The notes: a model not told the origin generated them from the letters alone. A stretch of DNA of 38,812 bases from an uncultured Prolixibacteraceae bacterium (GCA_964442545.1 CAYUAN010000220.1:1-38812); one strand, 5' to 3'. Shown: positions 21,922 through 37,592, numbered from the stretch's first letter. Program-made: numbers and translations.

Positions 21922-23460
21922 ATGACAAATATAGGAGCAAGTGAGCTAAGTCTGTCCGGAGTTTATGATATCCTTTTTAACGAAAAAAAACTCAGGATAG
22001 CTGAGCATACGGTGCAAGAGATGCAGGCCAGTTTTGATTTTCTGAAAGAAATATCGGAGAATAAAGTGGTATATGGTATTAATACCGGCTTGGGCCCGAT
22101 GGCACAGTTTAAAATCGAGCCGTATGAGCAGATAGATTTGCAATACAATCTTATTCGCAGTCATGCAAGTGGTACCGGTGAAGCCTTACGCCCCGTTCAT
22201 GTAAAAGCCGCTATGGTTTGCCGGCTGAACACACTTTCTCAGGCTCGTTCCGGTGTACATCCCGATGTGGCCGATGTCCTTATTGCAATGGTAAATAATG
22301 ATGTTACCCCACTGATTCCCGTGCATGGCGGGGTAGGGGCGAGTGGCGATTTGGTACAACTTGCTCATTTGGCCCTTACCGTAATCGGCGAGGGCGAAGT
22401 TTTTTATAAAGGTATGCGACGACCGACAGCAGAGGTGTTTAAGGAACTAAATATTAAGCCGCTAAAGGTCCGTCTGCGTGAGGGCTTGGGCATGATTAAT
22501 GGAACCTCCGTGATGAGTGGTATCGGTATTGTGAGCATTATTAAGAGTTACCATTTGTTGAATTGGTCCTTGGTGACTGCCGCGATGATTAATGAAGTGG
22601 TCAGTTCGTTTTCCGACCATTTTTCCGAAGAGTTAAACGAGGTAAAACATCATGCCGGACAGCAAAAGATTGCAGCGGCCTTGCGGACACAAATGGAAGA
22701 TAGTAAACTGATTCGTCAGCGTTGTGATTTTCCCTTTGACGGAACCCTGAAAGGAAATGAATACCAGCAAAAAATACAAGAATATTATTCCCTGCGCTGT
22801 ATTCCGCAAATTCTGGGGCCGATTTATGATACCATCGAAAATGCGGAGCAGGTGCTAATCGCCGAAGTAAATTCGGTAAGTGATAATCCGGTAATTGATT
22901 ATAAGCGGAAGAAAGTATTCCACGGCGGAAACTTTCATGGCGATTATGTTTCTCTGGAAATGGATAAGCTGCGTTTGGCCGTAATTAAACTTTCGATGCT
23001 GGCCGAGCGGCAGATTAATTATCTGATGAATGATAAGCTGAACGGTATCTTGCCGCCTTTTGTCAATCTGGGCAAAAAAGGATTGAACCTCGGTATGCAA
23101 GGCGTTCAATTTACGGCCACCTCAACGGTTGCCGAGAATCAAAGTCTGGGTACTTCGCTCTATATTCACAGCATTCCGAACAATAACGATAATCAGGATA
23201 TCGTGAGTATGGGAGCCAATTCAGCCTTGGCTACGGACAAGGTTATTGATAACAGTTTTGAGGTTATGGCGATTGAATTGCTTACGCTGGTGCAGGCGAT
23301 AGATTACCTGAAAATCCGGGATAAACTATCCACCTCATCACGGGCTGTTTATGATGACATTCGTGCTTTGGTTCCCACTTTTTCCGAAGATACAAGCAAA
23401 TACGGGGAATTGGCAAAGATTAAGGACTATTTGAAAACAAAAAAATTGAACATTATATAA
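21922..23460 (+). CDS. MIO-dependent aromatic amino acid ammonia-lyase (HAL/PAL/TAL family), probable tyrosine ammonia-lyase from its context
   Basis: ASG MIO triad at 22339-22347 (GGVGASGDLVQLAHLAL). Also YGINTGLGPMA, EYYSLRCIPQILGP and HGGNFHGDYVSLEMDKL. First gene of a polyene cluster, like FlxA in flexirubin clusters. Confidence 0.88.
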   Translation: MTNIGASELSLSGVYDILFNEKKLRIAEHTVQEMQASFDFLKEISENKVVYGINTGLGPMAQFKIEPYEQIDLQYNLIRSHASGTGEALRPVHVKAAMVCRLNTLSQARSGVHPDVADVLIAMVNNDVTPLIPVHGGVGASGDLVQLAHLALTVIGEGEVFYKGMRRPTAEVFKELNIKPLKVRLREGLGMINGTSVMSGIGIVSIIKSYHLLNWSLVTAAMINEVVSSFSDHFSEELNEVKHHAGQQKIAAALRTQMEDSKLIRQRCDFPFDGTLKGNEYQQKIQEYYSLRCIPQILGPIYDTIENAEQVLIAEVNSVSDNPVIDYKRKKVFHGGNFHGDYVSLEMDKLRLAVIKLSMLAERQINYLMNDKLNGILPPFVNLGKKGLNLGMQGVQFTATSTVAENQSLGTSLYIHSIPNNNDNQDIVSMGANSALATDKVIDNSFEVMAIELLTLVQAIDYLKIRDKLSTSSRAVYDDIRALVPTFSEDTSKYGELAKIKDYLKTKKLNII

Positions 23461-24188
23461 TGCGAACAGCTTTAGTAACCGGAGGTTCCCGCGGAATCGG
23501 ACGGGCAATATGCCAACAATTGGCAGCGGATGGTTTTCATGTTTTGATAAACTATCGTTCAAATCACGTTGAGGCGGAAGAAACATTATCGACTATTCAG
23601 GCCGGCGGGGGCTCAGCCGAATTAATGCCTTTTGATGTGGCGAACATTGAAGCGGTACGCGCGGCTTTGCGCGCTTGGAAAGAGCAGCACGCTGAAGATT
23701 ATATTTCGGTATTGGTTAATAATGCCGGTATCAGTCGCGATAACCTGATGGTGTTTATGAATGATGAAGAATGGGAAAGCGTATTGACGACCAATCTGGA
23801 TAGCTTTTTCTATGTGACGAAGGAATTGCTGCAGGATATGATTGTAAACAAGCACGGACGCATTATCAATATTGTTTCGCTTTCGGGCATGAAAGGACAG
23901 CCCGGCCAGGTGAATTATTCGGCGGCTAAGGCAGGCGTGGTTGGCGCTACCAAAGCTTTGGCTCAGGAAATCGGCAAGAAGAAAGTCACCGTAAACGCGG
24001 TGGCCCCCGGTTTTATCACAACGGATATGACCAGGGAAATGCCCGAAAAAGAATTGAAGCGAATGATTCCGCTGAACCGTTTCGGAAAGCCGGAAGAGGT
24101 GGCGCATTTGGTTTCTTTTCTTGCCTCGGACAAATCAGCCTATATCACAGGCGAAACCATACAAATTAACGGAGGATTATACACTTAA
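23460..24188 (+). CDS. 3-oxoacyl-ACP reductase (FabG/ApeQ-like)
   Basis: TGGSRGIGRA, NNAG and YSAAKAG (YxxxK). Its start overlaps the previous stop (TAATG). Confidence 0.9.
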   Translation: MRTALVTGGSRGIGRAICQQLAADGFHVLINYRSNHVEAEETLSTIQAGGGSAELMPFDVANIEAVRAALRAWKEQHAEDYISVLVNNAGISRDNLMVFMNDEEWESVLTTNLDSFFYVTKELLQDMIVNKHGRIINIVSLSGMKGQPGQVNYSAAKAGVVGATKALAQEIGKKKVTVNAVAPGFITTDMTREMPEKELKRMIPLNRFGKPEEVAHLVSFLASDKSAYITGETIQINGGLYT

Positions 24189-24207
24189 TTAATAGATAGA
24201 GAAGTAA

Positions 24208-25428
24208 ATGGATCGCAGAGTTGTCATCACCGGAACGGGTATTTATGCCACCATTGGTAAAAACCTTGATGAGGTAAAAGATTCTTTATACCACGGCAAG
24301 TCGGGCATCGGGTTTGATCCCGCCCGCAAGGAATTAGGCTTTCGTTCGGCCTTAACAGGCATTATCGAGCGCCCTGTGCTGAAGGGTGTGCTGCCGCGCC
24401 GCATGCGGATTGGTTTGGCCGAGCAAGGTGAATATGCCTATGTGGCCACGATGGAGGCTTTGAAAAACGCCCACATCGATGAAGCTTTTTTGGATGCCAA
24501 TGAAGTGGGTATTTTATATGGAAACGACAGCTCGGCAGTGCCCGTTATTCAGGCGGCGGATATTATTCGCGAAAAGAAAAATACGGTTATGGTGGGTTCG
24601 GGTTCTATTTTTCAGTCGATGAACTCGACCGTAACCATGAACCTTTCCGTAATTTTGAAATTACGGGGAATCAATTTTACCGTAAGTGGCGCCTGCGCCA
24701 GTGGTTCACATGCCATTGGTATGGCTTATCTGTTGATTAAACAAGGTTTGCAGGATATGATTATTACCGGAGGTGCTCAGGAAATCAATGCCCTGTCCAT
24801 GGGTAATTTCGACGCATTGAACGCTTTTTCCGTGCGTGAAGACGAGCCCACAAAAGCTTCCCGCCCCTTTGATAAAGATCGTGATGGCTTGGTTCCCAGT
24901 GGTGGAGCAGCTACCTTGGTGCTCGAAAGCTATGAGTCTGCGGTAAAACGCGGGGCGCCGATTCTCGCGGAGGTTTTGGGCTACGGTTTTTCATCTAACG
25001 GCGATCATATCTCGGTTCCCAATGTTGTAGGCCCCACAATCTCTTTGGAGCGGGCAATTAATGACGCCGGCATCGACCCTTCGGAAGTGGACTATGTAAA
25101 TGCCCACGCGACCTCGACGCCTGTGGGTGATATGAACGAAGCTCAGGCTTTGGATAATATCTTCGGGAAATACAAAACTCCGATTAGTTCAACCAAATCC
25201 ATGACCGGCCACGAAATGTGGATGGGTGGGGCCAGCGAGATAATTTATTCCATGATTATGGCGCAAAATTCATTTATCGCGCCCAATATTAATTTCGAAA
25301 ATCCTGATGAGTACTCCAAAAACCTGAATATTGTACGGGAGACCATGCAAGCGGAAATCAAGCTTTTCGTGTCCAATTCTTTTGGTTTTGGCGGCACAAA
25401 CTCATCCCTGGTTGTGCGGATGCTTTAG
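24208..25428 (+). CDS. Beta-ketoacyl-ACP synthase (FabB/F-like, stand-alone KS)
   Basis: Cys-His-His triad: SGACASGSHAIG, NAHATSTPVGD, GHEMWMGGASE. Ends with GFGGTNSSLVV. Confidence 0.9.
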   Translation: MDRRVVITGTGIYATIGKNLDEVKDSLYHGKSGIGFDPARKELGFRSALTGIIERPVLKGVLPRRMRIGLAEQGEYAYVATMEALKNAHIDEAFLDANEVGILYGNDSSAVPVIQAADIIREKKNTVMVGSGSIFQSMNSTVTMNLSVILKLRGINFTVSGACASGSHAIGMAYLLIKQGLQDMIITGGAQEINALSMGNFDALNAFSVREDEPTKASRPFDKDRDGLVPSGGAATLVLESYESAVKRGAPILAEVLGYGFSSNGDHISVPNVVGPTISLERAINDAGIDPSEVDYVNAHATSTPVGDMNEAQALDNIFGKYKTPISSTKSMTGHEMWMGGASEIIYSMIMAQNSFIAPNINFENPDEYSKNLNIVRETMQAEIKLFVSNSFGFGGTNSSLVVRML

Positions 25429-25556: not shown

Positions 25557-25796
25557 ATGGATGTAAAATCAACCATTAACGAATTTTTAATTGACGAATT
25601 TGAACTGGAGCCGGACCAGCTGGTGCCTGATGCAAAGCTAAAAGACGATTTGGATATCGGCAGTTTGGATTTTGTTGATATTGCGGTAATTGTCGAAAAA
25701 GAGTTTGGCTTTAAAGTCAAAAGTGAGGATATGGTAAACATCCGTGTATTGCAGGATTTATACGATTATATCGAGCAAAAGGCCAATTCAAATTAA
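25557..25796 (+). CDS. Acyl carrier protein 1
   Basis: 79 aa, acidic. The phosphopantetheine-attachment region reads LDIGSLDFVDIAV. Confidence 0.85.
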   Translation: MDVKSTINEFLIDEFELEPDQLVPDAKLKDDLDIGSLDFVDIAVIVEKEFGFKVKSEDMVNIRVLQDLYDYIEQKANSN

Positions 25797-25808
25797 TAAA
25801 CTCCTCAA

Positions 25809-26723
25809 ATGCGTTCATGGAAAGGCAAAACGCGGGGAGGTCTCTGGGGATATAAATTCTTTATCTTAAGTCTTCGATTTTTCGGGCTCAATTTTGCTTA
25901 TTTCATACTCTATTTCGTAGTGGTATATTTCGCGCTTTTCGCCCCGAAAGCCACCCGTTCCATTTATTTCTACTTCCGTAAAGTACGCGGACAATCCGCT
26001 CTGAAATCCTTTTTCAATATTTTCCGTAATTATTATGTTTTCGGCCAGGTGCTTTTGGATAAAACCGCTTTGCTTGCCGGGTTTACTACCGATTTTACTT
26101 ACGATTTCGACGGCGAATACCGTTTGCACGATTTGGCGGCCAAAAAACAAGGCGCTTTGCTGGTGGGCGCCCATGCCGGGAATTGGGAAATCGCGGGCCA
26201 ATTGCTTGAACGTATCAATACCACCATTCATATTGTGATGCTGGAGGCCGAGCACGAACAGATCAAAAAACTCATGGATACGGTTTTGGTAAAAAAAGAT
26301 GTGGATATTATTCCCATAAAGAAAGATATGTCGCATTTGCTAAAAATCAAAGAGGCCTTCGATAATAACCATTTTGTGGCCATGCATGGTGATCGTTTTG
26401 TGGAGGGAAATAAATTCTTGCTTTGCGATTTTTACGGAAAAAAAGCGGCCTTCCCGACCGGCCCCTTTTATATGGCCACGAAATTTAAGGTGCCCATCGT
26501 ATTTGTATCGGCCATGAAAGTAAATCGCCGCCATTATCACTTTCACGCCACAGAACCCAAAGTTTATCCCTATCCTGCCAATCCGAAAAAACGTGACGAG
26601 CAAATCCGGGTGATATTGAAGGATTATATCGCCGAGATAACACGCATGCTCGACCAATATCCCCTGCAATGGTTTAATTATTACGAATTCTGGGAAGAGC
26701 AGAAAAAAGAAGCTAAATCCTAA
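25809..26723 (+). CDS. LpxL/HtrB-like lysophospholipid (lipid A-type) acyltransferase (ApeD-like)
   Basis: N-terminal TM segment, then the GAHAGNWE (HxxxxE) catalytic motif typical of LpxL-family acyl-ACP-dependent acyltransferases. Confidence 0.8.
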   Translation: MRSWKGKTRGGLWGYKFFILSLRFFGLNFAYFILYFVVVYFALFAPKATRSIYFYFRKVRGQSALKSFFNIFRNYYVFGQVLLDKTALLAGFTTDFTYDFDGEYRLHDLAAKKQGALLVGAHAGNWEIAGQLLERINTTIHIVMLEAEHEQIKKLMDTVLVKKDVDIIPIKKDMSHLLKIKEAFDNNHFVAMHGDRFVEGNKFLLCDFYGKKAAFPTGPFYMATKFKVPIVFVSAMKVNRRHYHFHATEPKVYPYPANPKKRDEQIRVILKDYIAEITRMLDQYPLQWFNYYEFWEEQKKEAKS

Positions 26724-26869: not shown

Positions 26870-27295
26870 ATGCAAGAACTTTTAAACCGTCCTGTTTTGG
26901 ATTTTATTCCCCAACGGCCTCCTTTTGTGTTGGTTGACCGCATTGTGGAATGTAATGAGGACTTTACCCGCAGTGAGTTCACGGTACAATCGGAACATCT
27001 GCTCTGCAAAGACGGTTTCTTGCAGGAGGGCGGCCTGATTGAAAATATCGCTCAAACGGCTGCCGCGGGCCATGGCATTTTAATGCTTTCCCAAGGCAAA
27101 GAAGTGGTGCGCGGCTTTATCGGTTCGGTAAAAAATCTGTTGCTTCACAAGCTGCCCCCGGAGGGTACGCTCTTGACGACCACGGTCGATAATGTAAGCG
27201 AAGTGATGAATGTAAACATCGTGAAAGGACGGGTGGAGGACGAATCGGGCGTGCTGTATGCCGAGGGCGAAATGAATATATTTTTAGAAAACTGA
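26870..27295 (+). CDS. Hotdog-fold dehydratase, atypical FabZ-like (ApeP-like)
   Basis: The N-terminal IPQRPPFVLVDRIVE resembles the FabZ LPHR.PfLLVDR motif with H replaced by Q. GHFP is absent. SEH and IENIAQ are retained as possible His/Glu sites. Confidence 0.65.
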   Translation: MQELLNRPVLDFIPQRPPFVLVDRIVECNEDFTRSEFTVQSEHLLCKDGFLQEGGLIENIAQTAAAGHGILMLSQGKEVVRGFIGSVKNLLLHKLPPEGTLLTTTVDNVSEVMNVNIVKGRVEDESGVLYAEGEMNIFLEN

Positions 27296-27726
27296 TGGCA
27301 GAACAAAAGAAAACAATCAAGGATATTTGTGAAACGCGCATCCGTTTTAGCGAGGTGGATTCGATGGGAATTTTATGGCACGGCAATTATATCAAGCTCT
27401 TCGAAGACGGGCGCGAATCCTGGGGGTTGAAATACGGAATGCATTACATCAATTTTTACGAAAACAAGGTGATGACACCCATTGTGCATACTTCCATCGA
27501 CCATAAACAGGTTATGCGTTATGGCGATACTGCCATTATCGAAACGGAATATATCGATACGGAGGCCGCTAAAATAAAATACAAATACCGCATTCGCCGT
27601 AAGTCTGATTATAAGGTGGTTGCCGAGGGCGAAACGGTACAGGTATTTACTGATATCGAAGGAAATTTACTGCTGACAATACCTGCATTTTTTCTGGAGT
27701 GGAAACGTAAACAAGGCCTGCTGTAA
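27295..27726 (+). CDS. 4HBT/YbgC-type acyl-CoA/ACP thioesterase (ApeK-like)
   Basis: IRFSEVDSMGILWHGNYIKLFEDGRE, i.e. a hotdog thioesterase with an N-terminal catalytic Asp. TGATG overlap with the previous gene. Confidence 0.8.
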   Translation: MAEQKKTIKDICETRIRFSEVDSMGILWHGNYIKLFEDGRESWGLKYGMHYINFYENKVMTPIVHTSIDHKQVMRYGDTAIIETEYIDTEAAKIKYKYRIRRKSDYKVVAEGETVQVFTDIEGNLLLTIPAFFLEWKRKQGLL

Positions 27727-28880
27727 TGGAACGGGAAGTATATATCGCCGGAGGAGAAATGATCAGCGCTTTGGGGCCTTCATTGGCGGCTAATATGGAG
27801 CGCATCCTGCAAATGAATAGCGGGGTGCGGCTGAATGAAAACCGCGAACTCTCCAATGAGGCTTTTTATTGTGCGGCTTTGGAACCGGAGCAATTGCAGC
27901 CGTTATTCGAACAAGCGGGCCGGCACGAAAACTATACCCCTTTTGAGCAAATAGCAATTTATGTGGCCGAGGCCGCATGGAAAAACACTTCCGTGGACAT
28001 TCGTTCACCGCGAACAGCTATTATCCTGTCCACTACCAAGGGGAATATCGACCTCTTGGATAAAGGTCAGGCTGGAAAATATCCCGCAAACCGGATTCAT
28101 CTGTGGGCTGCCGCCGATGCCATCGGCAAATATTTTCAAAATCCGAATAAAGTTTTGGTCGTGTCCAACGCTTGTGTTTCCGGTGTTTTGGCCATCAATA
28201 CGGCCGCTTCCCTGATTCGGGCCCGCAGCTATGACCACGTGCTGATAATCGGCGCCGATATGTTATCGAAGTTTGTGGTATCGGGATTTCAATCCTTTCA
28301 GAGTTTGAGCGCCGGAGTATGCAAACCCTTTGACCGCGACCGCGACGGATTGAATCTGGGGGAGGCGGCAGGCTGCCTGATTCTGACGGCAGAAGCTACG
28401 GGCAGTATCAAGGTTTTGGGTGGTTCCACACACAACGACGCCAATCATATTTCAGGCCCTTCACGTACGGCGGAGGGATTTTACCTCGCGGCCCGCTCGG
28501 CTATTAAAGCCTCGGGCATTACGCCTGCGCAAATCCAATATATATCGGCCCACGGAACGGCAACTCCCTACAATGATGAGATGGAGGCTATCGGCATTGG
28601 ACGTTTGGGGTTGGAGCATGTTCCGGTGCATAGTCTGAAAGCTTTTTGGGGGCACACGCTGGGGGCGGCCGGAGTGATTGAGGCCTTAGTACAAATCGAA
28701 TCGATGAAGCGCGGAATTTTATTGCCCACTTTGGGATGCGAAAAGCCGGGTGTTTCCGTGGATATTAATATCAGTCGAAAACCGGAACAGAAAAAAATCC
28801 GCTATGCCCTCAAAGTGGCTTCGGGTTTTTCCGGAGTAAACTCATCGGTGGTTTTTGAAAATACGGAGGGCGCGAAATGA
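27726..28880 (+). CDS. Beta-ketoacyl synthase (ApeO-like KS)
   Basis: Cys-His-His triad: SNACVSGVLAI, SAHGTATPYND, GHTLGAAGVIE. TAATG overlap upstream and ATGA overlap downstream. Confidence 0.88.
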   Translation: MEREVYIAGGEMISALGPSLAANMERILQMNSGVRLNENRELSNEAFYCAALEPEQLQPLFEQAGRHENYTPFEQIAIYVAEAAWKNTSVDIRSPRTAIILSTTKGNIDLLDKGQAGKYPANRIHLWAAADAIGKYFQNPNKVLVVSNACVSGVLAINTAASLIRARSYDHVLIIGADMLSKFVVSGFQSFQSLSAGVCKPFDRDRDGLNLGEAAGCLILTAEATGSIKVLGGSTHNDANHISGPSRTAEGFYLAARSAIKASGITPAQIQYISAHGTATPYNDEMEAIGIGRLGLEHVPVHSLKAFWGHTLGAAGVIEALVQIESMKRGILLPTLGCEKPGVSVDINISRKPEQKKIRYALKVASGFSGVNSSVVFENTEGAK

Positions 28881-29769: not shown

Positions 29770-30966
29770 ATGCCCGGAAAGCGGATTGTAATTAGCGGAA
29801 TGGGGGCCATCAGTGCCCTGGGCGATGATGTGGCGGCTCATTTGGATGCGCTGCAAAACGGACGCCACGGTATCAGTATGACCGACTATCTGGAAACAGC
29901 ACACCGGTATACTTTTCCCGTAGGCGAAATCAAGCACAGTAACGATGAGTTGATTGCCTTGCTTGATTTGCCGCAAGGCGCTTATTCGCGTACCGAACTT
30001 TTAGGTTTGTTCGCTGTTCGGCAGCTTATCGCGAGCCTGCAATTGAAAACCGGTGGCCGGACGGGATTGGTATCGGCCAGTACGGTGGGCGGAATGGATC
30101 AAAGTGAGCGCTTTTTCGAAGATTATATACAAGGAGAAAAACTGGAATATGCCCGCCGTCATCCTTTGGGCGTAAGCACGGAATTTATCGCCGCCAACAC
30201 CGGTATTAAAGGATTTCGCAGTACGGTAAGTACGGCCTGCTCTTCCTCGGCCAATGCGATGATTATCGGTGCCCGCCTGCTTCGGCAAGGGGTGGTTGAC
30301 CAGGTTATCGTGGGCGGAACGGATGCGCTCTCGGCCTTTACCATAAATGGTTTTAACAGTTTGATGATTTTGGATAAAAATCATTGCAAGCCTTTTGATA
30401 ACCGGCGTAAAGGGTTGAACCTCGGGGAGGCGGCCGCCTTTCTGCTTTTGGAAACCGAGGAAAGTGCCCGTGCCGCCGGACGCAAAATATGGAGTGAGCT
30501 GAAAGGCTACGCCAACACCAATGACGCCTATCACCAAACGGCTTCGTCGCCGGAAGGAAATGCCGCTTTTGCCGCGATGGAAGGCGCTTTGCAAAAGGCG
30601 GGAATGACCATTGCGGAAGTGGATTATGTGAATGCCCACGGAACGGGTACCGCCAATAATGATTTGGCCGAATCGCGGGCGATGGAACGTCTGTTTGACG
30701 GGGCGAAAATACCCTTCAGCTCCACAAAAGCCTATACCGGCCACACTTTGGGTGCCGCAGGTGCCATTGAAGCCGTTTTTGCCAATTTGTGCATCGAACA
30801 TAAGATTGTGCCTGCCTCACTCAATTGTGCGCATCCGATGGAAGAGGTGAACATTTTCCCCGAAACCAAGCGGAAAACCTTGGATAAGCTGAATACGGTT
30901 TTGTCCAATTCTTTTGGTTTCGGCGGAAATAACACATCGCTTTTATTCTCATCCCTAAATGATTAG
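29770..30966 (+). CDS. Beta-ketoacyl-ACP synthase II-like KS
   Basis: Cys-His-His triad: STACSSSANAM, NAHGTGTANND, GHTLGAAGAIE. Ends with GFGGNNTSLLF. Confidence 0.9.
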   Translation: MPGKRIVISGMGAISALGDDVAAHLDALQNGRHGISMTDYLETAHRYTFPVGEIKHSNDELIALLDLPQGAYSRTELLGLFAVRQLIASLQLKTGGRTGLVSASTVGGMDQSERFFEDYIQGEKLEYARRHPLGVSTEFIAANTGIKGFRSTVSTACSSSANAMIIGARLLRQGVVDQVIVGGTDALSAFTINGFNSLMILDKNHCKPFDNRRKGLNLGEAAAFLLLETEESARAAGRKIWSELKGYANTNDAYHQTASSPEGNAAFAAMEGALQKAGMTIAEVDYVNAHGTGTANNDLAESRAMERLFDGAKIPFSSTKAYTGHTLGAAGAIEAVFANLCIEHKIVPASLNCAHPMEEVNIFPETKRKTLDKLNTVLSNSFGFGGNNTSLLFSSLND

Positions 30967-31894
30967 CCTTATGAAAAACGAATTGTATATAACGGGTTTG
31001 GGAATGATTTCGGCACAGGAAAGCCTCGGTGTGAAAAACACGAAGGCCTTCACGGCCAAGGAGGATTTCCACTGCATCGAACCCGATTACAAAGCATATA
31101 TTCCGCCGGCCAAGGCGCGCCGTATGAGCCGCATATTGAAATATAGTTATGTAGCTGCCAAACAGGCACTGACGGAAGCCGCCCTGGAACAACCGCAAAC
31201 CATCAATGTGGCGACGGCGTTGGGCTGCCTGAAAGACACAACGCTTTTTGTGCAGGATATGATTGAAAGCAAGGAGCAGGTTTTGAAACCCACGCCTTTT
31301 ATCAATTCCACCCATAATACGGTGGCCGGATTGCTGGCGCTGACCTATGGCGCCAAAGGCCAGAATTTCACTTTTTCGCATACTGATTTTAGTTTCGAGC
31401 ACGCCCTGCTGGATGTTATGATGCGGATGGAGGAAGGGGAAATAGAAAATGCATTGCTGGGTGCTGTTGAAGAACTTACCGAAGAAACGGAATTGATTAA
31501 GCGGCATTTGCATATGGAAAACCAGGGCGAAGGTGCGAGTTTTTTTGCGGTTTCCGGTACCGGAGGCAGCGATTACTATGCACGGGTAAAGGCCGTGGCT
31601 TTTGCTTACGAATTAGAGGGTGAAGACGATTTATATTATGCGGTAATGGATTTTCTTAAATCGGCCGGTGCAGATGCGGCACAAGTGAATACGGTAGTTA
31701 GCGACCATGACCTGACGCATGTTTTCGATATCGAAAAGCAAATCCTATATAAAGAATATTGCGGTGATTATATGACGGCTTCGGGCTTTGGTTTCGGGAT
31801 GGCCGCCTTGGAAGTATTCAACCGGCAGCAAGACGTATTGCTGATCAATCACAACAATAAAAACAGCTATTCATTGGTATTATTAGGACGTTAG
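30959..31894 (+). CDS. Ketosynthase-like chain-length-factor-type partner (no catalytic Cys)
   Basis: KS-like segments ARRMSRILKYSYVAAKQAL and FINSTHNTVAGLLALTYGAKGQNFTFSHTDFSFEHAL, with the catalytic Cys position replaced. 8-nt overlap with the KS upstream. An alternative ATG lies at 30971. Confidence 0.7.
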   Translation: MISLMKNELYITGLGMISAQESLGVKNTKAFTAKEDFHCIEPDYKAYIPPAKARRMSRILKYSYVAAKQALTEAALEQPQTINVATALGCLKDTTLFVQDMIESKEQVLKPTPFINSTHNTVAGLLALTYGAKGQNFTFSHTDFSFEHALLDVMMRMEEGEIENALLGAVEELTEETELIKRHLHMENQGEGASFFAVSGTGGSDYYARVKAVAFAYELEGEDDLYYAVMDFLKSAGADAAQVNTVVSDHDLTHVFDIEKQILYKEYCGDYMTASGFGFGMAALEVFNRQQDVLLINHNNKNSYSLVLLGR

Positions 31895-31895: not shown

Positions 31896-32687
31896 ATGAG
31901 CCGGTTTGCGATTCTCAATATGCTGTTTATCGCAGGAGCCGTGCTGACCGGCTATCTGGTGTTCAGTGGTTTTACATCCTGGTACAGCTTGTTGTTTTTG
32001 GCCCTGGCCTATTTGCTGATTCTTATCGCAGGTGTGAGCCGTGTGGATTTCGAACTGTTTATGGATATCGAAAATTCGGGAGATAACCGCTACAACAAAA
32101 TCGCCCTCTCTTTTGATGACGGCCCTAATCCCGAAATTACTCCTGAGGTATTGGATAAACTGGCACGCTACGGCGTGAAAGCGGCCTTTTTTTGCATAGG
32201 CGGCAAGGTGGAAGAACATCAGGCGCTGGCCGGGCGCATCCATCGCGAAGGCCATATTTTGGGCAATCATTCCTTTTATCATAAAAACGATTTCCCTTTT
32301 CAAAAGGTGGAGGCCATAAAAGAAGAACTGCAAAATTGCAATAGAGCGATTGCCCGTGCCTGTGGTTTTGAACCTCTGTTTTTTCGTCCGCCATTCGGCG
32401 TAACAAATCCACGTATTGCCAAAGCGGTTAAGGAGCTTGAAATGACAACAATTGGCTGGAGCTTGCGCACTTTCGACACCGCCAAATCACCGGAAAAGGT
32501 AATAAAAAAGCTCCGCAAAAAACTTACGGGCGGCGATTTGATTCTTTTGCACGACAATCATCCGGGCGTATTGGAGATACTGGACTTTTTAATTCCTTAT
32601 GCCGAGCAACAGGGATTGGAATTCGTCCGGCCCGATGGGTTGCTTGCTAAGGACGGCGAACGTGCACTTGTTCAAAAGGAGAAATAA
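31896..32687 (+). CDS. Membrane-anchored polysaccharide deacetylase (NodB homology/CE4 domain)
   Basis: Two N-terminal TM helices. NodB motifs LSFDDGP, GNHSFYH and FRPPFG are all present. Confidence 0.85.
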   Translation: MSRFAILNMLFIAGAVLTGYLVFSGFTSWYSLLFLALAYLLILIAGVSRVDFELFMDIENSGDNRYNKIALSFDDGPNPEITPEVLDKLARYGVKAAFFCIGGKVEEHQALAGRIHREGHILGNHSFYHKNDFPFQKVEAIKEELQNCNRAIARACGFEPLFFRPPFGVTNPRIAKAVKELEMTTIGWSLRTFDTAKSPEKVIKKLRKKLTGGDLILLHDNHPGVLEILDFLIPYAEQQGLEFVRPDGLLAKDGERALVQKEK

Positions 32688-32689: not shown

Positions 32690-34573
32690 TTATGGTAGTA
32701 CAACTTTTTTAACGTGAAAACTATCTTGCTGCCCAAAACGGACAAAGTATAAACCGCCTGTCTTGACAGGAATACGATATTGGATGCTTTTTATTTCTCT
32801 TTTGAAAATTCGGCGTCCTGAACTATCAAAAACCTCCAAACGTCCTTTTGCCGGGGCTTCAAATTGTACGACGATATTTTTTCCTTCGGCAAATGTCCGA
32901 AATGCTGCTTCTTGATGATTATCAGTTTCGTCGATTCCGATATGCGTATCACGTGTATATTTAAATTGTTCGATAAGCGACCCGTCTGCGCGGATGGCGC
33001 TAAAGCTTAACGTATCCTGATTAATATCCAATTTGCAAAAATGCAGCGATTTATCTACCACAACAATACTATCTGCATTCGGATTGGGGGTGTATAGCGG
33101 AGCTCCGCCGCCTCCAGTAGTGATATGTTGTACTCCCATAACCGAAGCACGCGCATAATAATGGTTATGGCCCGCGATGACAAAATGAACGCCGTATTTC
33201 AAACAAAGCGGTTGAATGGTCTTTTGTGTGGTTCCGCTATTGGAATGCCCGCCGCCCGCACTCCATCCGGGTTTGTGCAAAAGGATGATTTTCCATGGTT
33301 TGCCGGTGGACGAAAGGTCGTTTACCAACCAGTTGTATTGGGGGCTGCCACTGCTGTAAGAGGTGTATTGATCTAAAACCGTGAAATGAATCGGGCCATA
33401 ATCAAATGAATAATAGTATTGTCCGTTGACGAACATTGGATAATAAAAATATTTGGCAAATAAAACCCCCTGTCCTTCGTGATTTCCCACCGCAGCCAGG
33501 TAAGGTAATGTGGATAACATTTTTTGCAGTCCGCTATAATTCGCGCTGAAGAGTTGATTATCCCAATCATCTTCGTTATCTCCGTCGGCAACAATATCGC
33601 CACTGGAAACAATTAATGTTTGTGAAGCCGGATCTTGCACAATAGCGGAGAGAATGGCACGTGCTACCGAATCGTGCAAATGCGGATAGGTGCGGGTATC
33701 GCCATAAGCATAAAAACTAATTTGATTCGCCTGATTGTTGGCACCGCTTATAAAATCCCCGCTTTTTACTTCTTGTGAATTACATTCGACTTTATAAAAA
33801 TAATGTGTGTTTGGTGTTAATCCCGTTAATATGATTTTATGTTGATGGTCGTTGCCATATTCTTGTGTGGTATCAATACCCACACTATAGCTTGTGTCGG
33901 TTCCCCAACGGATAACGCAATTTTTTTGCTGACGGAGTTGCCACATAATCAGCATTTCGCTATTAATACCGGTATAAAGTAAGTAGGGTGCTTTGCGGAA
34001 AGCAGAATAATTAATAAACTCCATTTTCAGGTCAAAGCTGATATCCGAACTTGAACTGCTGCGTTGATGTAGCTCAACGGCAATAACATTTTGCCCGCTG
34101 TCAAGTAATGTGGAGGGGAAATCGTAATTGTAAAAAGCATCTTCGGCCGATCCGGCTACAGTGCTTGCTGCCGTAGTGGTATAGGTAATAGTTCCCGATG
34201 GCATATTAGAACGAAGCAGCTCAGTGCCGTTTAAGTAAACGACAGCACCGTCGTCACGCAATACGGAAACTCGAAACCCGTTTTTGACTGCCGGATTGGA
34301 AATATTAAAACTTTTGCGGAAATAATAACAGATATGTTTATTCGAAGAATTGTTTCCATAACTCAATACGGTGGTTTCGTCTCCGTCGCCATAACCCAAT
34401 TGTGCAGTTCCTTGAGCCCAGGCAGAATCATTGAAATTTATCCCAATCCAAGCCGTGTTTTGATTGGAGCCGTCGTCCAGATATTTCCAATTTGCTCCTT
34501 GTGGAATAATGGTTTGTCCGTAAATACTTAAGCTGAACAAGCTTAAAAGCATAAAGTTGATTAGATTTTTCAT
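32690..34573 (-). CDS. Secreted calcineurin-like/purple-acid-type metallophosphoesterase with an N-terminal beta-sandwich module and a T9SS C-terminal domain
   Basis: Signal peptide. Metallophosphoesterase motifs YGDTRT, SSGDIVADGDNEDDW, VGNHE, LLHKP and AGHNHYY. The C-terminal ~73 aa (LEVFDSSGRRI...GLYFVRF...) look like a T9SS CTD. Confidence 0.85.
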   Translation of the reverse strand: MKNLINFMLLSLFSLSIYGQTIIPQGANWKYLDDGSNQNTAWIGINFNDSAWAQGTAQLGYGDGDETTVLSYGNNSSNKHICYYFRKSFNISNPAVKNGFRVSVLRDDGAVVYLNGTELLRSNMPSGTITYTTTAASTVAGSAEDAFYNYDFPSTLLDSGQNVIAVELHQRSSSSSDISFDLKMEFINYSAFRKAPYLLYTGINSEMLIMWQLRQQKNCVIRWGTDTSYSVGIDTTQEYGNDHQHKIILTGLTPNTHYFYKVECNSQEVKSGDFISGANNQANQISFYAYGDTRTYPHLHDSVARAILSAIVQDPASQTLIVSSGDIVADGDNEDDWDNQLFSANYSGLQKMLSTLPYLAAVGNHEGQGVLFAKYFYYPMFVNGQYYYSFDYGPIHFTVLDQYTSYSSGSPQYNWLVNDLSSTGKPWKIILLHKPGWSAGGGHSNSGTTQKTIQPLCLKYGVHFVIAGHNHYYARASVMGVQHITTGGGGAPLYTPNPNADSIVVVDKSLHFCKLDINQDTLSFSAIRADGSLIEQFKYTRDTHIGIDETDNHQEAAFRTFAEGKNIVVQFEAPAKGRLEVFDSSGRRIFKREIKSIQYRIPVKTGGLYFVRFGQQDSFHVKKVVLP

Positions 34574-34675: not shown

Positions 34676-34683
34676 TAATTTTG
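34676..34683 (+). promoter_or_regulatory. Candidate -7 box (TAATTTTG) for the distal part of the cluster
   Basis: Exact TAnnTTTG match 70 nt upstream of the LolA-like ATG at 34753. Confidence 0.35.
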
Positions 34684-34752
34684 GAACGATTATTTATCTT
34701 CTTTCGGCCTGCTTTTTGCATCTGTGGCGCACATCAAAAAAGGAATTATATA

Positions 34753-35397
34753 ATGACAAAGCAAATTTACCATTGGGGAATAATTTTACTTCTTATAGTT
34801 GTTAGCGGTTTTTCTAATAAGAAAGATGATGATTTTCGTCGTGTGCAAAATGAACAGTTTATACGAGAAAAGATTATTGAGAAAGCCCGCAATACCCGCA
34901 CGATTCGTAGCGATTTTACCCAGGAAAAGCATTTGACGATGTTCGAAGAAGTGCTGGTAAGTAATGGTGAGTTTCTGTTCAGCGAACCCAATAAAGTACG
35001 CTGGGAATATCTGGAACCGATTTCGTATATAATTGTGCTGGACGGTAAAAAAGTACTGATAAAAGATGAGGACAAGGTGAAATCATACGATATGAATTCC
35101 AATCCGATTTTTAAGGAGGTAAACCGTCTTTTGGTAAACTCGCTAAGCGGAGAAATTCTGAGTGATAAGGATTTTCGTATTGAATATTACGAAAGTGCGG
35201 ATGCTTATATGACGCGCCTTTTTCCGAATAATGAGGATATGAAGCAGGTGATTGACAATATCGAACTGTATTTTAATAAAATAGATTTCGGGGTAACCGG
35301 ATTGCGAATTAATGAATTCAGCAAGGATTTTACCCTGATAAAATTCCAAAACCGCATTTTGAATGAGGATATTGATAAGGCTGCTTTTAAGCTTTAG
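34753..35397 (+). CDS. LolA-like outer-membrane lipoprotein carrier family protein (ApeL-like)
   Basis: N-terminal hydrophobic signal/anchor. FTQEKHLTMFEEVLVSNGEFLFSEPNKVRWEYLEPISYIIVLDGKKVLIKD matches the LolA fold pattern. ATG at 34753; the track start at 34681 is TTG. Confidence 0.68.
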   Translation: MTKQIYHWGIILLLIVVSGFSNKKDDDFRRVQNEQFIREKIIEKARNTRTIRSDFTQEKHLTMFEEVLVSNGEFLFSEPNKVRWEYLEPISYIIVLDGKKVLIKDEDKVKSYDMNSNPIFKEVNRLLVNSLSGEILSDKDFRIEYYESADAYMTRLFPNNEDMKQVIDNIELYFNKIDFGVTGLRINEFSKDFTLIKFQNRILNEDIDKAAFKL

Positions 35398-35956
35398 TTT
35401 TTTGTGGGCCACGGCCAATGTACGGGCCGGAGACAGCCTGGTTTTGGCGCAGCAGCGAATTTTTCCGCAGCATTCGTTCCGGGCGGTGTATAAAACCCGT
35501 ATTCATTTTAAGGATAAAGATTTGAGCGGCTTGCTCCTGGTGCGCCAAAATGCGGATTCTTCTTTTCGGGTGGCTATGGTAACCGAAGTGGGAATGAAAA
35601 TTTTTGAGTTTAAGTTTTTCGCCCGCAAAAAGGATAATTTCCAGGTGGTATCCATTTTAAGCTATATGGACCGCAAGATTATAATCAATACCTTGCGCCG
35701 TGATTTCGAATCATTGTTTATGACTTTTGCAACGTATAAAAATCCGCATATCAGGGGGAATGAGCTATGCTATCGCTACGGGGGGCGGAGGATTTATCAA
35801 TTGAATGAGGGAAGCATCACGCGAATGCTGCGAAAGAAACTGCTATTTAAAAAAGAGCAAATTGAAATTGAATCCGAAAAGGGCGCGCTGCCGCAAAAGA
35901 TTTTTGTCCGGCATTATGGCGTAGATTTGCAAATCGAAATGGAGTGGATTAAGTAA
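35363..35956 (+). CDS. Secreted protein of unknown function (possibly the DUF3261/ApeN-type partner of the LolA-like protein)
   Basis: Signal peptide MRILIRLLLSFSFLWATANVRA, 197 aa, with no motif I recognise. 35-nt overlap with the LolA-like CDS. The DUF3261 assignment rests on position only. Confidence 0.45.
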   Translation: MRILIRLLLSFSFLWATANVRAGDSLVLAQQRIFPQHSFRAVYKTRIHFKDKDLSGLLLVRQNADSSFRVAMVTEVGMKIFEFKFFARKKDNFQVVSILSYMDRKIIINTLRRDFESLFMTFATYKNPHIRGNELCYRYGGRRIYQLNEGSITRMLRKKLLFKKEQIEIESEKGALPQKIFVRHYGVDLQIEMEWIK

Positions 35957-35957
35957 T

Positions 35958-36326
35958 ATGGAATTATATAAAATACGTAATACAGAACATTCGGAAGGCA
36001 CGGCTTTAGTGCGTTTGGAGCTGAATCCCGCACATGCGGTATATCAGGGGCATTTCCCCGGAATGCCGGTTCTGCCGGGTGCATTGCAGGTGGAGATTAT
36101 TAAAGAATTGTTCGCTAAAATATTGGACGCGCCCCTTCGGCTGGACTCGGCGAAAAGCATTAAATATCTGGGTTTTGTGGTCCCCGGCGAACATCCTGTT
36201 TTGGACGTAGAGCTGAAATATAAAACTACGGAATCGGGCTACGGATTGCGTGCGCAAATACGTTCCGCGAATGACAACGCGCCTAAAATATTTATGAAAT
36301 TTTCCGGACAATTTTCAAAAAAATAA
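35958..36326 (+). CDS. FabZ-like 3-hydroxyacyl-ACP dehydratase (ApeI-like)
   Basis: Canonical YQGHFPGMPVLPGALQVEIIKEL (His and Glu present). 122 aa hotdog fold. Confidence 0.8.
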   Translation: MELYKIRNTEHSEGTALVRLELNPAHAVYQGHFPGMPVLPGALQVEIIKELFAKILDAPLRLDSAKSIKYLGFVVPGEHPVLDVELKYKTTESGYGLRAQIRSANDNAPKIFMKFSGQFSKK

Positions 36327-36344
36327 AACCAAAGCACGCCCGAG

Positions 36345-37592
36345 ATGCCTGATTTCAGTCATAAGGAACTATTCGAAAAACATAATGCTTGTGTGCTGAT
36401 GGCCACCTTCAATAATGCGGGAACCATCGAAGACATCATCCGGCGGGTGCTGAACATAACACCTCATTTAATTGTTGTAAACGACGGCTCGACGGATGAA
36501 ACTCCGGAAATACTGCAGCGTTTGCAAGCGGAATTTGGTTTTCAGGTACACGGCTACGAAAAGAATCGCGGAAAAGGCTATGCCTTGCGCACGGGCTTTT
36601 CCGAAGCCCGCAAGTCGGGCTATGATTATGCCCTGACGCTGGACTCCGACGGGCAACATTTCCCCGAGGATACTCCGCTTTTTTTAGAGAAATTGGAGGA
36701 AGTGGGAGAGCCTTGCCTGATATTGGGTAACCGTAATATGAATACGGCGGAGGGGATTCCCGGGAAAAGCAGTTTCGGGAATAATTTTTCCAACTTCTGG
36801 TTTTGGGTGGAGACCGGCCAAAAACTGCCGGATACTCAAACGGGTTTTCGCCTATACCCCATACTGCTTTACGATAAGATTAAATGGCATACGGTGAAAT
36901 TCGAGTTCGAAATCGAGGTTTTGGTGCGTTCGGCCTGGCGGGGCATTACCATCACCTCGGTTCCGGTGCAGATTGTTTATTTCGAAGGAGATGAGCGGGT
37001 GTCGCACTTCCGTCCGTTTGCCGATTTTTCCCGCATCAGCGTGTTGAATACCGTATTGGTTACTTTGGCGCTGCTGTGGTATTACCCGCGGAAATCGCTG
37101 CGCTATTTTGCCGAAAACAAACCCTTGGATATCATCAAAGAGCAATTGAGCAAGCATAATGAAAGTAAGCTCAAAATTAGTTTTACGATGGGCTTCGGTT
37201 TTTTTATGGGCATCGTTCCCATATGGGGCTTTCAAATGCTGGTTGCCTTTTTCCTGGCGCAATGGATGAAACTCAATAAAACCCTGGTTATCCTGGCGGC
37301 CAATATCAGTTTGCCTCCCTTGATACCCTTTATTGTATGGGGCAGCTTTTGGTTTGGCGGATTGCTGTTGCACGGTGACCCCGAGCGCATCGGACATTCC
37401 ATAAAGGATAATGTGGCGCTGTTTCAAAACGAGGACTTTCTCACCGCGCTTGCCGCTTTGGGCGATGATATATGGCAATATCTGGTGGGGGCCTTCGCTT
37501 TGGCGCTGGTGACTGGTTTTATAGGTTTTGCCGCGACTTATATCATTATCAGCATCAAAGAGCGCGTTTGGAAAAAAGAGCAGATGAATTAG
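36345..37592 (+). CDS. Family 2 glycosyltransferase fused to a C-terminal multi-TM DUF2062-like domain (ApeJ-like)
   Basis: GT-A motifs VVNDGSTDET and LDSDGQH. After about residue 230 come several TM helices (VLVTLALLWYY, GFFMGIVPIWGFQMLVAFFLA, LVILAANISLPPLIPFIVW), as seen in DUF2062. Confidence 0.82.
   Translation: MPDFSHKELFEKHNACVLMATFNNAGTIEDIIRRVLNITPHLIVVNDGSTDETPEILQRLQAEFGFQVHGYEKNRGKGYALRTGFSEARKSGYDYALTLDSDGQHFPEDTPLFLEKLEEVGEPCLILGNRNMNTAEGIPGKSSFGNNFSNFWFWVETGQKLPDTQTGFRLYPILLYDKIKWHTVKFEFEIEVLVRSAWRGITITSVPVQIVYFEGDERVSHFRPFADFSRISVLNTVLVTLALLWYYPRKSLRYFAENKPLDIIKEQLSKHNESKLKISFTMGFGFFMGIVPIWGFQMLVAFFLAQWMKLNKTLVILAANISLPPLIPFIVWGSFWFGGLLLHGDPERIGHSIKDNVALFQNEDFLTALAALGDDIWQYLVGAFALALVTGFIGFAATYIIISIKERVWKKEQMN

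What the first reader, a model, noticed from the sequence alone, without database searches (positions are those of the whole stretch)
21922..37592. Flexirubin/aryl-polyene-type type II PKS-FAS pigment cluster with an unusual gene complement
Sixteen same-strand genes, many with overlapping stop and start codons, encode an MIO ammonia-lyase, a FabG-type KR, three Cys-His-His ketosynthases, two Cys-less KS partners, two ACPs, two hotdog dehydratases, a YbgC-type thioesterase, an LpxL-type acyltransferase, a NodB deacetylase, a LolA-like carrier, an unknown secreted protein and a GT2-DUF2062 fusion. This parts list matches aryl polyene (Ape) clusters, plus the ammonia-lyase that marks flexirubin clusters. 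Several expected genes are not visible in the window. These are the dialkylresorcinol genes (DarA/DarB) that define true flexirubins, an aryl-acid adenylating or CoA-ligase enzyme, a methyltransferase or halogenase, and an MMPL/RND exporter. The cluster is bounded by unrelated protease genes on both sides. The predicted product is therefore a hydroxyphenyl-polyene acyl chain on a lipid or glycolipid anchor that is neither a classic flexirubin nor a proteobacterial APE.
Basis: partly seen in the sequence, partly recalled or inferred. Interest (0 to 1): 0.72.

Follow-up and report, generated by a model that had tools for sequence, protein, structure and literature searches.

The report
Flexirubin-type pigment gene cluster, core part
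This is a recognisable flexirubin-type pigment gene cluster from an uncultured Bacteroidia bacterium, with the same gene order as a characterised cluster; the genes that look missing are often encoded elsewhere in relatives, so a new kind of pigment is not shown.

Summary
The gene inventory is largely confirmed, but there are 17 plus-strand genes, not 16.

The 17 genes are collinear with flxA-flxT of the characterised Chitinophaga pinensis flexirubin cluster, minus flxG, flxJ and flxK. The lyase scores as NCBIfam equivalog FlxA (807.8 bits, cut-off 700). The "unknown secreted protein" is LolB2_flexi (91.9 bits, cut-off 60).

No relative of FlxU, FlxW, FlxY, DarA, DarB, DarG or DarH is in the 38.8-kb contig. 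FlxV and FlxX could not be tested because I had no reference sequences. The contig is one piece of a MAG.

Absence from the locus does not show absence from the genome:
- C. pinensis keeps darAB far from flx.
- The nearest lineages carry flxABC alone or flxF-T alone.
- 25 of 51 surveyed loci end after flxS.

The claim of "neither flexirubin nor APE" therefore does not follow. Three real peculiarities of this clade remain:
- FlxT is never followed by FlxU (4 of 4 loci, against 26 of 26 in comparators).
- LolB2 lacks a lipobox cysteine.
- There are no ring-tailoring genes.

Verdict: an ordinary member of a known cluster family, of low-to-moderate interest.

The parts
21922..23460 (+). flxA: tyrosine ammonia-lyase (MIO enzyme)
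   Evidence: PF00221 at 3.4e-162. NCBIfam equivalog NF053541 FlxA_rubin_TAL scores 807.8 bits, cut-off 700. The ASG motif that forms the MIO group is visible in the translation.
23460..24188 (+). flxB: FabG-type ketoreductase
   Evidence: adh_short_C2, adh_short and KR domains. 57% identical to the Chitinophaga flxB position.
24208..25428 (+). flxC: FabB/FabF-like ketosynthase with Cys-His-His
   Evidence: PF00109 plus PF02801. Catalytic Cys, His and His are kept in alignment A2.
25557..25796 (+). flxD: acyl carrier protein 1
   Evidence: PP-binding domain at 1.1e-08.
25809..26723 (+). flxE: LpxL-type (lipid A biosynthesis family) acyltransferase
   Evidence: PF03279 at 4.5e-12. Sits at the position of flxE.
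26870..27295 (+). flxF: hotdog dehydratase (ApeP-like)
   Evidence: PF22817 ApeP-like in the precomputed Pfam hits for the identical gene. Weak FabZ match.
27295..27726 (+). flxH: 4HBT/YbgC-type thioesterase
   Evidence: PF13279 and PF03061.
27726..28880 (+). flxI: ketosynthase with Cys-His-His, probable partner of flxL
   Evidence: PF00109 and PF02801. Cys/His/His kept. Its stop codon overlaps the flxL start codon.
28877..29497 (+). flxL: truncated Cys-less ketosynthase-like partner (chain-length-factor-like)
   Evidence: Best PDB sequence match is the actinorhodin chain length factor 1tqy_B, E = 6e-4. AlphaFold model has pLDDT 87.6. Top Foldseek matches are ishigamide CLF 6kxe_B, actinorhodin CLF 1tqy_B and ApeC 6qsp_B. 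Asn occupies the catalytic Cys column.
29509..29763 (+). flxM: acyl carrier protein 2
   Evidence: PP-binding domain at 5.2e-08.
29770..30966 (+). flxN: ketosynthase with Cys-His-His, ApeO-like
   Evidence: PF00109 and PF02801. Matches PDB FabF 4ls5 at 2e-61 and ApeO 6qsp_A at 2e-56, with the catalytic residues aligned.
30959..31894 (+). flxO: Cys-less ketosynthase-like partner (chain-length-factor-like)
   Evidence: PF00109 and PF13723, N-terminal domain only. Asp occupies the Cys column and both His are missing. No PDB sequence match.
31896..32687 (+). flxP: NodB-type polysaccharide deacetylase
   Evidence: PF01522 at 9.8e-31.
32690..34573 (-). Inserted gene, probably not part of the pathway: purple-acid-phosphatase-like metallophosphatase with a weak T9SS C-terminal domain
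   Evidence: PF00149, PF16656 and a weak PF18962 match. Present only in the window species (L001-L005). Absent at this site in relatives L086-L090, where flxP overlaps flxQ. No homologue found in the surveyed loci L006-L092 or, by tblastn, in L093, L094, L096 and L098.
34753..35397 (+). flxQ: LolA2 (LolA-like periplasmic carrier)
   Evidence: PF03548 at 3.2e-19. The gene is called from ATG 34753 in identical contigs. The longest ORF starts at TTG 34681.
35363..35956 (+). flxR: LolB2 (LolB-like protein of flexirubin loci)
   Evidence: NCBIfam equivalog NF053540 LolB2_flexi scores 91.9 bits, cut-off 60. It has a signal peptide without a lipobox Cys, unlike four comparators.
35958..36326 (+). flxS: hotdog dehydratase (ApeI-like / FabA-like)
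   Evidence: PF07977 and PF22818.
36345..37592 (+). flxT: GT2 glycosyltransferase fused to DUF2062 membrane domain
   Evidence: PF00535 at 1.3e-20 and PF09835 at 2.6e-19. 48% identical to Chitinophaga FlxT.
18542..21721 (-). Left boundary: C25 (gingipain-family) peptidase with SprB repeats and a T9SS sorting domain
   Evidence: PF01364, PF08126, PF13573 and PF18962. The same neighbour is found in relatives L086, L087, L089 and L090.
37659..38812 (+). Right boundary: S41 C-terminal processing peptidase (runs off the contig)
   Evidence: PF03572 plus PDZ domains. The full gene, followed by a Wzy_C gene, is seen in L002 and L003.

Best explanation
The locus is the core operon of a flexirubin-family (flx) aryl-polyene pigment pathway in an uncultured Bacteroidia bacterium.

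Shown by homology:
- FlxA is a flexirubin-type tyrosine ammonia-lyase that makes 4-coumarate.
- A type II PKS/FAS set is present: FlxC; the ketosynthase/chain-length-factor-like pairs FlxI-FlxL and FlxN-FlxO; ACPs FlxD and FlxM; ketoreductase FlxB; dehydratases FlxF and FlxS.

Inferred:
- This set builds a 4-hydroxyphenyl-polyenoyl-ACP.
- The ring is left unsubstituted, because no methyltransferase or halogenase is present.
- FlxH (thioesterase), FlxE (LpxL-type acyltransferase), FlxT (GT2-DUF2062) and FlxP (deacetylase) handle release and attachment to a lipid or glycolipid. This is by analogy with ApeD and ApeJ of the proteobacterial aryl-polyene lipids.
- LolA2 and LolB2 (FlxQ and FlxR) carry the product to the outer membrane.

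The steps with no gene here are activation of coumarate (FlxY-type ligase), the FlxU exporter/acyltransferase/methyltransferase, FlxW, and dialkylresorcinol synthesis and esterification (DarA/B/G/H). I judge these most likely to be encoded on other contigs of the same genome, as in a split flexirubin pathway. The end product would then be an ordinary flexirubin-type pigment. The minus-strand phosphatase gene is a species-specific insertion that splits the array into flxA-P and flxQ-T.
For: Family identity. NF053541 FlxA scores 807.8 bits (cut-off 700) and NF053540 LolB2_flexi 91.9 bits (cut-off 60). Gene order is identical to C. pinensis flxA-flxT minus flxG/J/K. Identity to a Chitinophaga flx locus is 28-64% across all 17 genes.

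Enzymology. Cys/His/His is kept in three ketosynthases. FlxL has a chain-length-factor fold. The dehydratases are ApeP-like and ApeI-like.

The cluster is maintained. The same 17-gene layout with intact ORFs is found in a lineage 50-88% identical per protein (L086-L090).

Split loci are normal.
- darAB lies far from flx in C. pinensis.
- flxABC stands alone in L096 and L098.
- flxF-T stands alone in L093 and L094.
- 25 of 51 surveyed loci end after flxS, and others begin at flxH or flxL.
- The FlxY ligase sits upstream of flxA in Mucilaginibacter-type loci.

The window is a single 38,812-bp MAG contig.
Against: No FlxU, FlxW, FlxY or Dar homologue is in the 38.8-kb contig, nor in the roughly 4 kb further downstream seen in L002.

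In 26 of 26 comparator species FlxU directly follows FlxT. In this clade it never does (window, L089, L093, L094). Real loss of FlxU is therefore possible.

I could not show that any genome of this clade carries dar, flxU or flxY anywhere. I also could not show that the flxABC-only and flxF-T-only loci of relatives occur together in one genome.
Confidence: 0.55

Rival explanations
1. The lineage has no dialkylresorcinol module and no FlxU. The operon makes an unsubstituted 4-hydroxyphenyl-polyene that FlxE, FlxT and FlxP attach to a lipid or glycolipid anchor, a Bacteroidota counterpart of the proteobacterial aryl-polyene lipids. A housekeeping ligase would activate the starter.
For: The locus keeps the lipid-anchoring and Lol-like genes (E, P, Q, R, T) but holds none of DarA/B/G/H, the ABC transporter, FlxU, FlxW or FlxY.

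The survey suggests separable modules. Mucilaginibacter-type loci carry chromophore plus dar genes without E/P/Q/R/T/U nearby. This locus carries chromophore plus E/P/Q/R/T without dar.

Clade-specific traits hint at altered handling of the product: FlxT uncoupled from FlxU in 4 of 4 loci against 0 of 26, and LolB2 without a lipobox Cys.

ApeD and ApeJ homologues build a GalNAc-phosphoglycerol-linked aryl polyene in Xenorhabdus.
Against: Absence is shown for only one contig of a fragmented MAG. Relatives scatter flx genes over several loci.

A dedicated TAL with no activating enzyme anywhere in the genome is biochemically awkward.

Every chemically characterised product of a FlxA-containing cluster is a dialkylresorcinol ester.
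Confidence: 0.33
2. A decaying remnant. The pathway lost its exporter, ligase and dar genes, and the remaining operon, now interrupted by an inserted phosphatase gene, no longer makes a pigment.
For: A foreign minus-strand gene interrupts the array. Several genes that accompany the cluster elsewhere are missing.
Against: All 17 ORFs are intact with catalytic residues kept. The same layout is conserved in a diverged sister lineage without the insertion. Nearly identical copies recur in four independent metagenome assemblies. The insertion lies between genes and disrupts no reading frame.
Confidence: 0.07

Closest known systems
Chitinophaga pinensis flexirubin cluster flxA-flxY (Cpin_1853-1877; Schoner et al. 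2014, PMC3992019)
   Same: Same order for A, B, C, D, E, F, H, I, L, M, N, O, P, Q, R, S, T. The lyase is FlxA-type. There are three true ketosynthases plus two Cys-less partners, two ACPs, the LolA2/LolB2 pair and GT2-DUF2062. The dar genes are not in the cluster in C. pinensis either.
   Different: Lacks flxG, flxJ (methyltransferase) and flxK (halogenase), and the whole flxU-flxY tail is not at the locus (FlxU, FlxW and FlxY checked by tblastn; flxV and flxX not tested with references, but flxT is followed directly by a peptidase gene). Carries an inserted minus-strand phosphatase gene. LolB2 has no lipobox Cys. Protein identity to a Chitinophaga locus is only 28-64%.
Flavobacterium johnsoniae flexirubin cluster (Fjoh_1075-1110 region; McBride 2009, cited in PMC3992019)
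   Same: Same core genes in the same relative order.
   Different: Flavobacterium loci embed darA, darB, darG, darH and an ABC transporter between flxE/F and flxH. They add beta-barrel outer-membrane protein genes, and flxT is followed by flxU (L076 and relatives). None of these is present here.
Proteobacterial aryl polyene (ape) cluster and its aryl-polyene lipids (Xenorhabdus doucetiae / E. coli CFT073; bioRxiv 10.1101/2020.12.19.423268)
   Same: ApeO/ApeC-like ketosynthase/chain-length-factor pair, ApeI-like and ApeP-like dehydratases, ketoreductase, two ACPs, thioesterase, LpxL-type acyltransferase, glycosyltransferase, and LolA-like and LolB-like proteins.
   Different: Has a tyrosine ammonia-lyase (coumarate starter) instead of a 4-hydroxybenzoate starter loaded by ApeH. 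Has a second ketosynthase/partner pair. There is no ApeH, ApeM (RND exporter) or ApeB (methyltransferase) at the locus.

Membership tests
Flexirubin (flx) biosynthetic gene cluster | FlxA-type tyrosine ammonia-lyase | tested here: met
   NF053541 equivalog scores 807.8 bits, cut-off 700.
Flexirubin (flx) biosynthetic gene cluster | Type II ketosynthase / partner / ACP / ketoreductase / dehydratase set collinear with flxB-flxS | tested here: met
   Pfam and NCBIfam assignments. Order compared with Table S4 of PMC3992019 and with 80 related loci.
Flexirubin (flx) biosynthetic gene cluster | Dedicated LolA2/LolB2 pair | tested here: met
   PF03548. NF053540 LolB2_flexi scores 91.9 bits, cut-off 60. 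PMC11885536 reports that this pair is always found in flexirubin loci.
Flexirubin (flx) biosynthetic gene cluster | FlxY-type 4-coumarate-CoA ligase | tested here: not met
   tblastn with three FlxY-like references gave no hit better than E = 2 in the window. No AMP-binding domain was found in any window ORF scanned. The rest of the genome could not be tested.
Flexirubin (flx) biosynthetic gene cluster | FlxU (MMPL/acyltransferase/methyltransferase) next to FlxT | tested here: not met
   No tblastn hit. FlxT is followed by an S41 peptidase. In comparators FlxU follows FlxT in 26 of 26 loci.
Flexirubin (flx) biosynthetic gene cluster | Dialkylresorcinol genes darA/darB (and darG/darH) in the genome | not testable with these tools
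   Absent from the 38.8-kb contig. The other contigs of the MAG could not be reached. In C. pinensis these genes lie at a distant locus.
Flexirubin (flx) biosynthetic gene cluster | Product is a polyene-dialkylresorcinol ester with a KOH colour shift | not testable with these tools
   Needs culture or heterologous expression and chemistry.
Proteobacterial aryl polyene (ape) cluster | ApeO/ApeC ketosynthase/chain-length-factor heterodimer and ApeI/ApeP dehydratases | tested here: met
   FlxN matches 6qsp_A at 2e-56. The FlxL model matches 6qsp_B and other chain length factors. PF22817 and PF22818 are present.
Proteobacterial aryl polyene (ape) cluster | ApeH acyl-ACP synthetase that loads a hydroxybenzoate starter, with no ammonia-lyase | tested here: not met
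   No adenylating enzyme is in the window. A FlxA-type TAL is present.
Proteobacterial aryl polyene (ape) cluster | ApeM RND/MMPL exporter in the cluster | tested here: not met
   No MMPL domain in any cluster ORF. No hit to FlxU.

The most novel reading that the evidence does not exclude
An uncultured Bacteroidia clade (window, L089, L093, L094) has uncoupled the chromophore and lipid-anchoring genes from FlxU and from the dialkylresorcinol module, and has turned LolB2 into a protein that is not a lipoprotein. It would make a dialkylresorcinol-free, unsubstituted 4-hydroxyphenyl-polyene glycolipid. That would be the first aryl-polyene lipid of Bacteroidota built from a tyrosine-derived starter.
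Probability: 0.3. Interest if true: 0.5.

Novelty: new member of a known kind. Interest (0 to 1): 0.24.

Why it matters
Flexirubin-type pigments are chemotaxonomic markers and antioxidant or UV shields of Bacteroidota. This locus extends the family to an uncultured Bacteroidia lineage.

It also shows a compact form of the cluster with no tailoring genes. That form keeps the lipid-anchoring and Lol-like genes (E, P, Q, R, T), whose role is still unexplained even in the model organisms.

If the lineage truly lacks the dialkylresorcinol genes, the operon would be a clean system for asking what those genes attach the polyene to. On present evidence it is mainly a caution: gene absence on one MAG contig should not be read as absence from a pathway whose genes are commonly scattered.

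Tried and rejected
1. Reaching the rest of the genome failed.
It returned relatives of at most 52% identity and not the source MAG.
- The look-up of encoding contigs indexes only shorter ENA, JGI and Logan copies of the contig.
- Listing more places for P0023, to test whether flxF-T and flxABC loci share one MAG, collapsed them as 'similar places'.

2. I did not run the metagenome-contig scan for DarB or FlxU.

3. The promoter and terminator scan of the cluster was at chance level: 34 promoter-like sites against 32.0 expected, and 24 terminator-like sites against 20.8. The scan models sigma-70-type promoters only, which may not fit this organism, so no operon boundaries were drawn from it.

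4. Rfam found nothing in the window.

5. FlxO has no PDB match by sequence, and I did not model it.

6. I considered whether the inserted phosphatase is a conserved pathway member, because a '5'-nucleotidase' orthologue group is listed with flavobacterial APE genes in PMC5932025. It has no homologue in the surveyed loci L006-L092 nor in four further relatives checked by tblastn, and it is missing from the sister lineage. I therefore treat it as an insertion.

7. Taxonomy by AtpA gave only unnamed 'Bacteroidetes/Bacteroidales/Vicingaceae bacterium' MAGs at about 80% identity. No cultured relative with a recorded flexirubin test could be named.

Full report
**Observation**

The window is a complete 38,812-bp contig of an NCBI MAG. 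The FlxL protein is found 100% identical on a contig of exactly that length. Between 21922 and 37592 there are 17 plus-strand ORFs, and many have overlapping stop and start codons.

An alignment of the five ketosynthase-like proteins shows the following:
- FlxC, FlxI and FlxN keep the Cys/His/His triad.
- The 311-aa protein has Asp at the Cys column and lacks both His.
- The 206-aa protein has Asn at the Cys column and ends soon after it.
- FlxN aligns residue for residue with FabF and matches ApeO (6qsp_A) at 2e-56.

Four corrections are needed:
- A 627-aa minus-strand gene for a purple-acid-phosphatase-like metallophosphatase, with a weak T9SS tail, lies at 32690-34573 between the deacetylase and LolA genes. 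It was overlooked.
- The 'unknown secreted protein' is LolB2_flexi, NF053540, at 91.9 bits against a cut-off of 60.
- The LolA gene probably starts at ATG 34753.

A C25 peptidase with SprB repeats and a T9SS domain lies on the left, and an S41 peptidase on the right. The other 21 kb of the contig hold housekeeping genes such as an ATP synthase operon, Lgt and a sensor kinase.

**What it is**

The lyase passes the NCBIfam equivalog model for the flexirubin tyrosine ammonia-lyase FlxA, at 807.8 bits against a cut-off of 700. It falls far below the cut-offs for histidine ammonia-lyase.

I compared the gene order with Table S4 of Schoner et al. 2014 (PMC3992019). It is flxA, B, C, D, E, F, H, I, L, M, N, O, P, Q, R, S, T. 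That is the C. pinensis cluster minus flxG (hypothetical), flxJ (methyltransferase) and flxK (halogenase), and it stops before flxU-flxY.

A Chitinophaga locus fetched here (L055) shows 28-64% protein identity for all 17 genes.

FlxL gives a confident AlphaFold model (pLDDT 87.6). Its best structural matches are chain length factors: ishigamide 6kxe_B, actinorhodin 1tqy_B and ApeC 6qsp_B. Its best PDB sequence match is also the actinorhodin chain length factor.

The enzymology is therefore two ketosynthase/chain-length-factor-like pairs (FlxI-FlxL and FlxN-FlxO, each pair translationally coupled) plus one FabB/F-like ketosynthase. The same set is present in the characterised flexirubin clusters.

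**The missing genes**

I took reference proteins from related loci and annotated them: FlxU, DarA, DarB, DarG, DarH, the ABC transporter, FlxG, FlxJ, FlxK, the FlxY-like ligase and FlxW. None has a tblastn hit in the window. I had no reference sequences for FlxV and FlxX, so those two were not tested. Contigs identical to the window extend about 4 kb further downstream and show only an S41 peptidase and a Wzy_C gene.

The question is what that absence means.

**Comparative evidence**

*The same lineage.* Contigs with 61-71% FlxL identity and 83-89% FlxA identity keep exactly this layout: C25 peptidase, then flxA-T, then unrelated genes. The downstream neighbours differ, and the phosphatase insertion is absent (L086-L090). 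The compact form is thus conserved. The phosphatase is an insertion specific to the window species. Its stop codon lies 2 bp from the flxP stop, and a 179-bp AT-rich gap precedes flxQ.

*Eighty species from GTDB* show at least four architectures:
- Flavobacteriia embed darA, darB, darG, darH and an ABC transporter inside the cluster.
- Chitinophaga and Cytophagales have A to U without dar.
- Ferruginibacter, Terrimonas and other Chitinophagaceae end after flxS and are followed by unrelated genes, for example a porin and an ammonium transporter, or an M3 peptidase.
- Mucilaginibacter has a minimal set, FlxY-A-B-F-I-L-N-O-S, next to a convergent dar/ABC block.

Twenty-five of 51 loci with flxS have no flxT after it. 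Several operons begin at flxH or flxL.

*The next-nearest lineages are split.* L093 and L094 (FlxL 52% identical) carry flxF to flxT with unrelated genes on both sides. L096 and L098 (FlxA 69-71% identical) carry only flxA-flxB-flxC between unrelated genes.

*Published precedent.* darAB of C. pinensis (Cpin_6850/6851) lies far from flx (Cpin_1853-1877).

Scattering of flexirubin genes over several loci is therefore the rule around this lineage. Absence from one MAG contig is weak evidence for absence from the genome.

**What remains distinctive**

- In all 26 comparator loci where sequence downstream of flxT is available, flxU follows directly. In the window, L089, L093 and L094 it does not.
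- LolB2 has a lipobox cysteine in the Chitinophaga, Flavobacterium, Cytophagales and Ferruginibacter loci. It has only a Cys-free signal peptide in those same four loci of this clade.
- No ring methyltransferase or halogenase is present.

These traits define a sub-architecture of the flx family. They do not on their own change the predicted chemistry, apart from an unsubstituted 4-hydroxyphenyl ring.

**Mechanism**

Shown by homology:
- Tyrosine is converted to 4-coumarate by FlxA.
- The cluster encodes the parts for iterative elongation, reduction and dehydration on ACPs: the ketosynthase/partner pairs, FlxB, FlxF and FlxS.

Inferred:
- The product is a hydroxyphenyl-polyenoyl-ACP.
- FlxH releases or edits the chain.
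- FlxE, FlxT and FlxP attach it to a lipid or glycolipid. This is by analogy with ApeD and ApeJ, which build a GalNAc-phosphoglycerol-linked aryl polyene in Xenorhabdus.
- LolA2 and LolB2 deliver it to the outer membrane. PMC11885536 finds this pair always in flexirubin loci, with the function still untested.

No gene here activates coumarate or makes and esterifies a dialkylresorcinol.

My estimates are:
- 0.55 that these genes lie elsewhere in the genome and the product is a normal flexirubin-type ester.
- 0.07 that the operon is a non-functional remnant. Intact ORFs, kept catalytic residues and conservation across the lineage argue against this.

**Comparison and novelty**

The locus meets the tested defining features of the flexirubin family: FlxA, the collinear PKS core and LolA2/LolB2. 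It lacks the FlxY, FlxU and dar features at the locus. Their genome-wide status cannot be tested here.

It resembles proteobacterial ape clusters in the ketosynthase/chain-length-factor, dehydratase, acyltransferase, glycosyltransferase and Lol-like parts. It differs from them in the starter chemistry (TAL rather than ApeH) and has no RND exporter.

Taxon-specific diversity of flexirubin clusters is already documented (PMC10734526). The idea that flavobacterial APE genes yield flexirubin only when dar genes are present is also in the literature (PMC5932025).

I therefore rate this as a new member of a known kind, from an uncultured Bacteroidia lineage. Its AtpA is at most about 83% identical to anything outside its own species group, and the named hits, at about 80%, are all MAGs. 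Interest is low to moderate.

**Limits**

- I could not reach the other contigs of the MAG.
- I could not prove that the split pieces seen in relatives occur together in one genome.

Noticed in passing
window 32690-34573 (minus strand): A 627-aa purple-acid-phosphatase-like metallophosphatase with a weak T9SS sorting domain is inserted between flxP and flxQ. It is convergent with flxP, and the two stop codons are 2 bp apart. It is present only in the window species. In sister-lineage contigs flxP overlaps flxQ at this site.
   Followed up: partly
window 35363-35956; L089 14409-15041; L093 14696-15310; L094 14647-15303: FlxR/LolB2 of this clade has a signal peptide without a lipobox cysteine. 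The Chitinophaga (L055), Flavobacterium (L076), Cytophagales (L035) and Ferruginibacter (L012) orthologues have L-x-[GS]-C lipoboxes. LolB2 may be soluble rather than lipid-anchored in this clade.
   Followed up: partly
L096 7962-11466; L098 10001-13509: Sister lineages carry flxA-flxB-flxC (TAL, ketoreductase, ketosynthase) as an isolated three-gene operon next to gcvH/VanZ/TonB genes, with no other flx gene within 10 kb.
   Followed up: partly
L093 6886-16896; L094 7993-16901: Related uncultured Bacteroidia carry flxF-flxT alone. L093 has an O-methyltransferase gene in front. There is no flxA-E upstream and no flxU downstream.
   Followed up: partly
L042, L067, L021, L024, L054, L077 (Mucilaginibacter-type loci): A minimal flexirubin layout: FlxY-like ligase, then A, B, F, I, L, N, O, S, facing a convergent ACP/ABC/darH/darG/darB/darA block. 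No flxC, D, E, H, P, Q, R, T or U lies within 10 kb. This suggests that the chromophore, dialkylresorcinol and lipid-anchoring/Lol genes behave as separable modules.
   Followed up: partly
L009, L015, L066, L010, L030: In some Ferruginibacter/Chitinophagaceae loci a second, convergent ACP plus ketosynthase plus Cys-less partner set (M, N, O on the minus strand) lies a few kb after flxS. In L015 and L030 it is followed by ABC and, in L030, dar genes.
   Followed up: no
window 18542-21721 (minus strand): A 1059-aa C25 (gingipain-family) peptidase with propeptide, SprB repeats and a T9SS sorting domain is the conserved divergent neighbour of flxA throughout this lineage (window, L086, L087, L089, L090).
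   Followed up: partly
window 5212-6291: A 359-aa ORF has a sub-threshold PorV (T9SS) match: 24 bits against a cut-off of 27.
   Followed up: no
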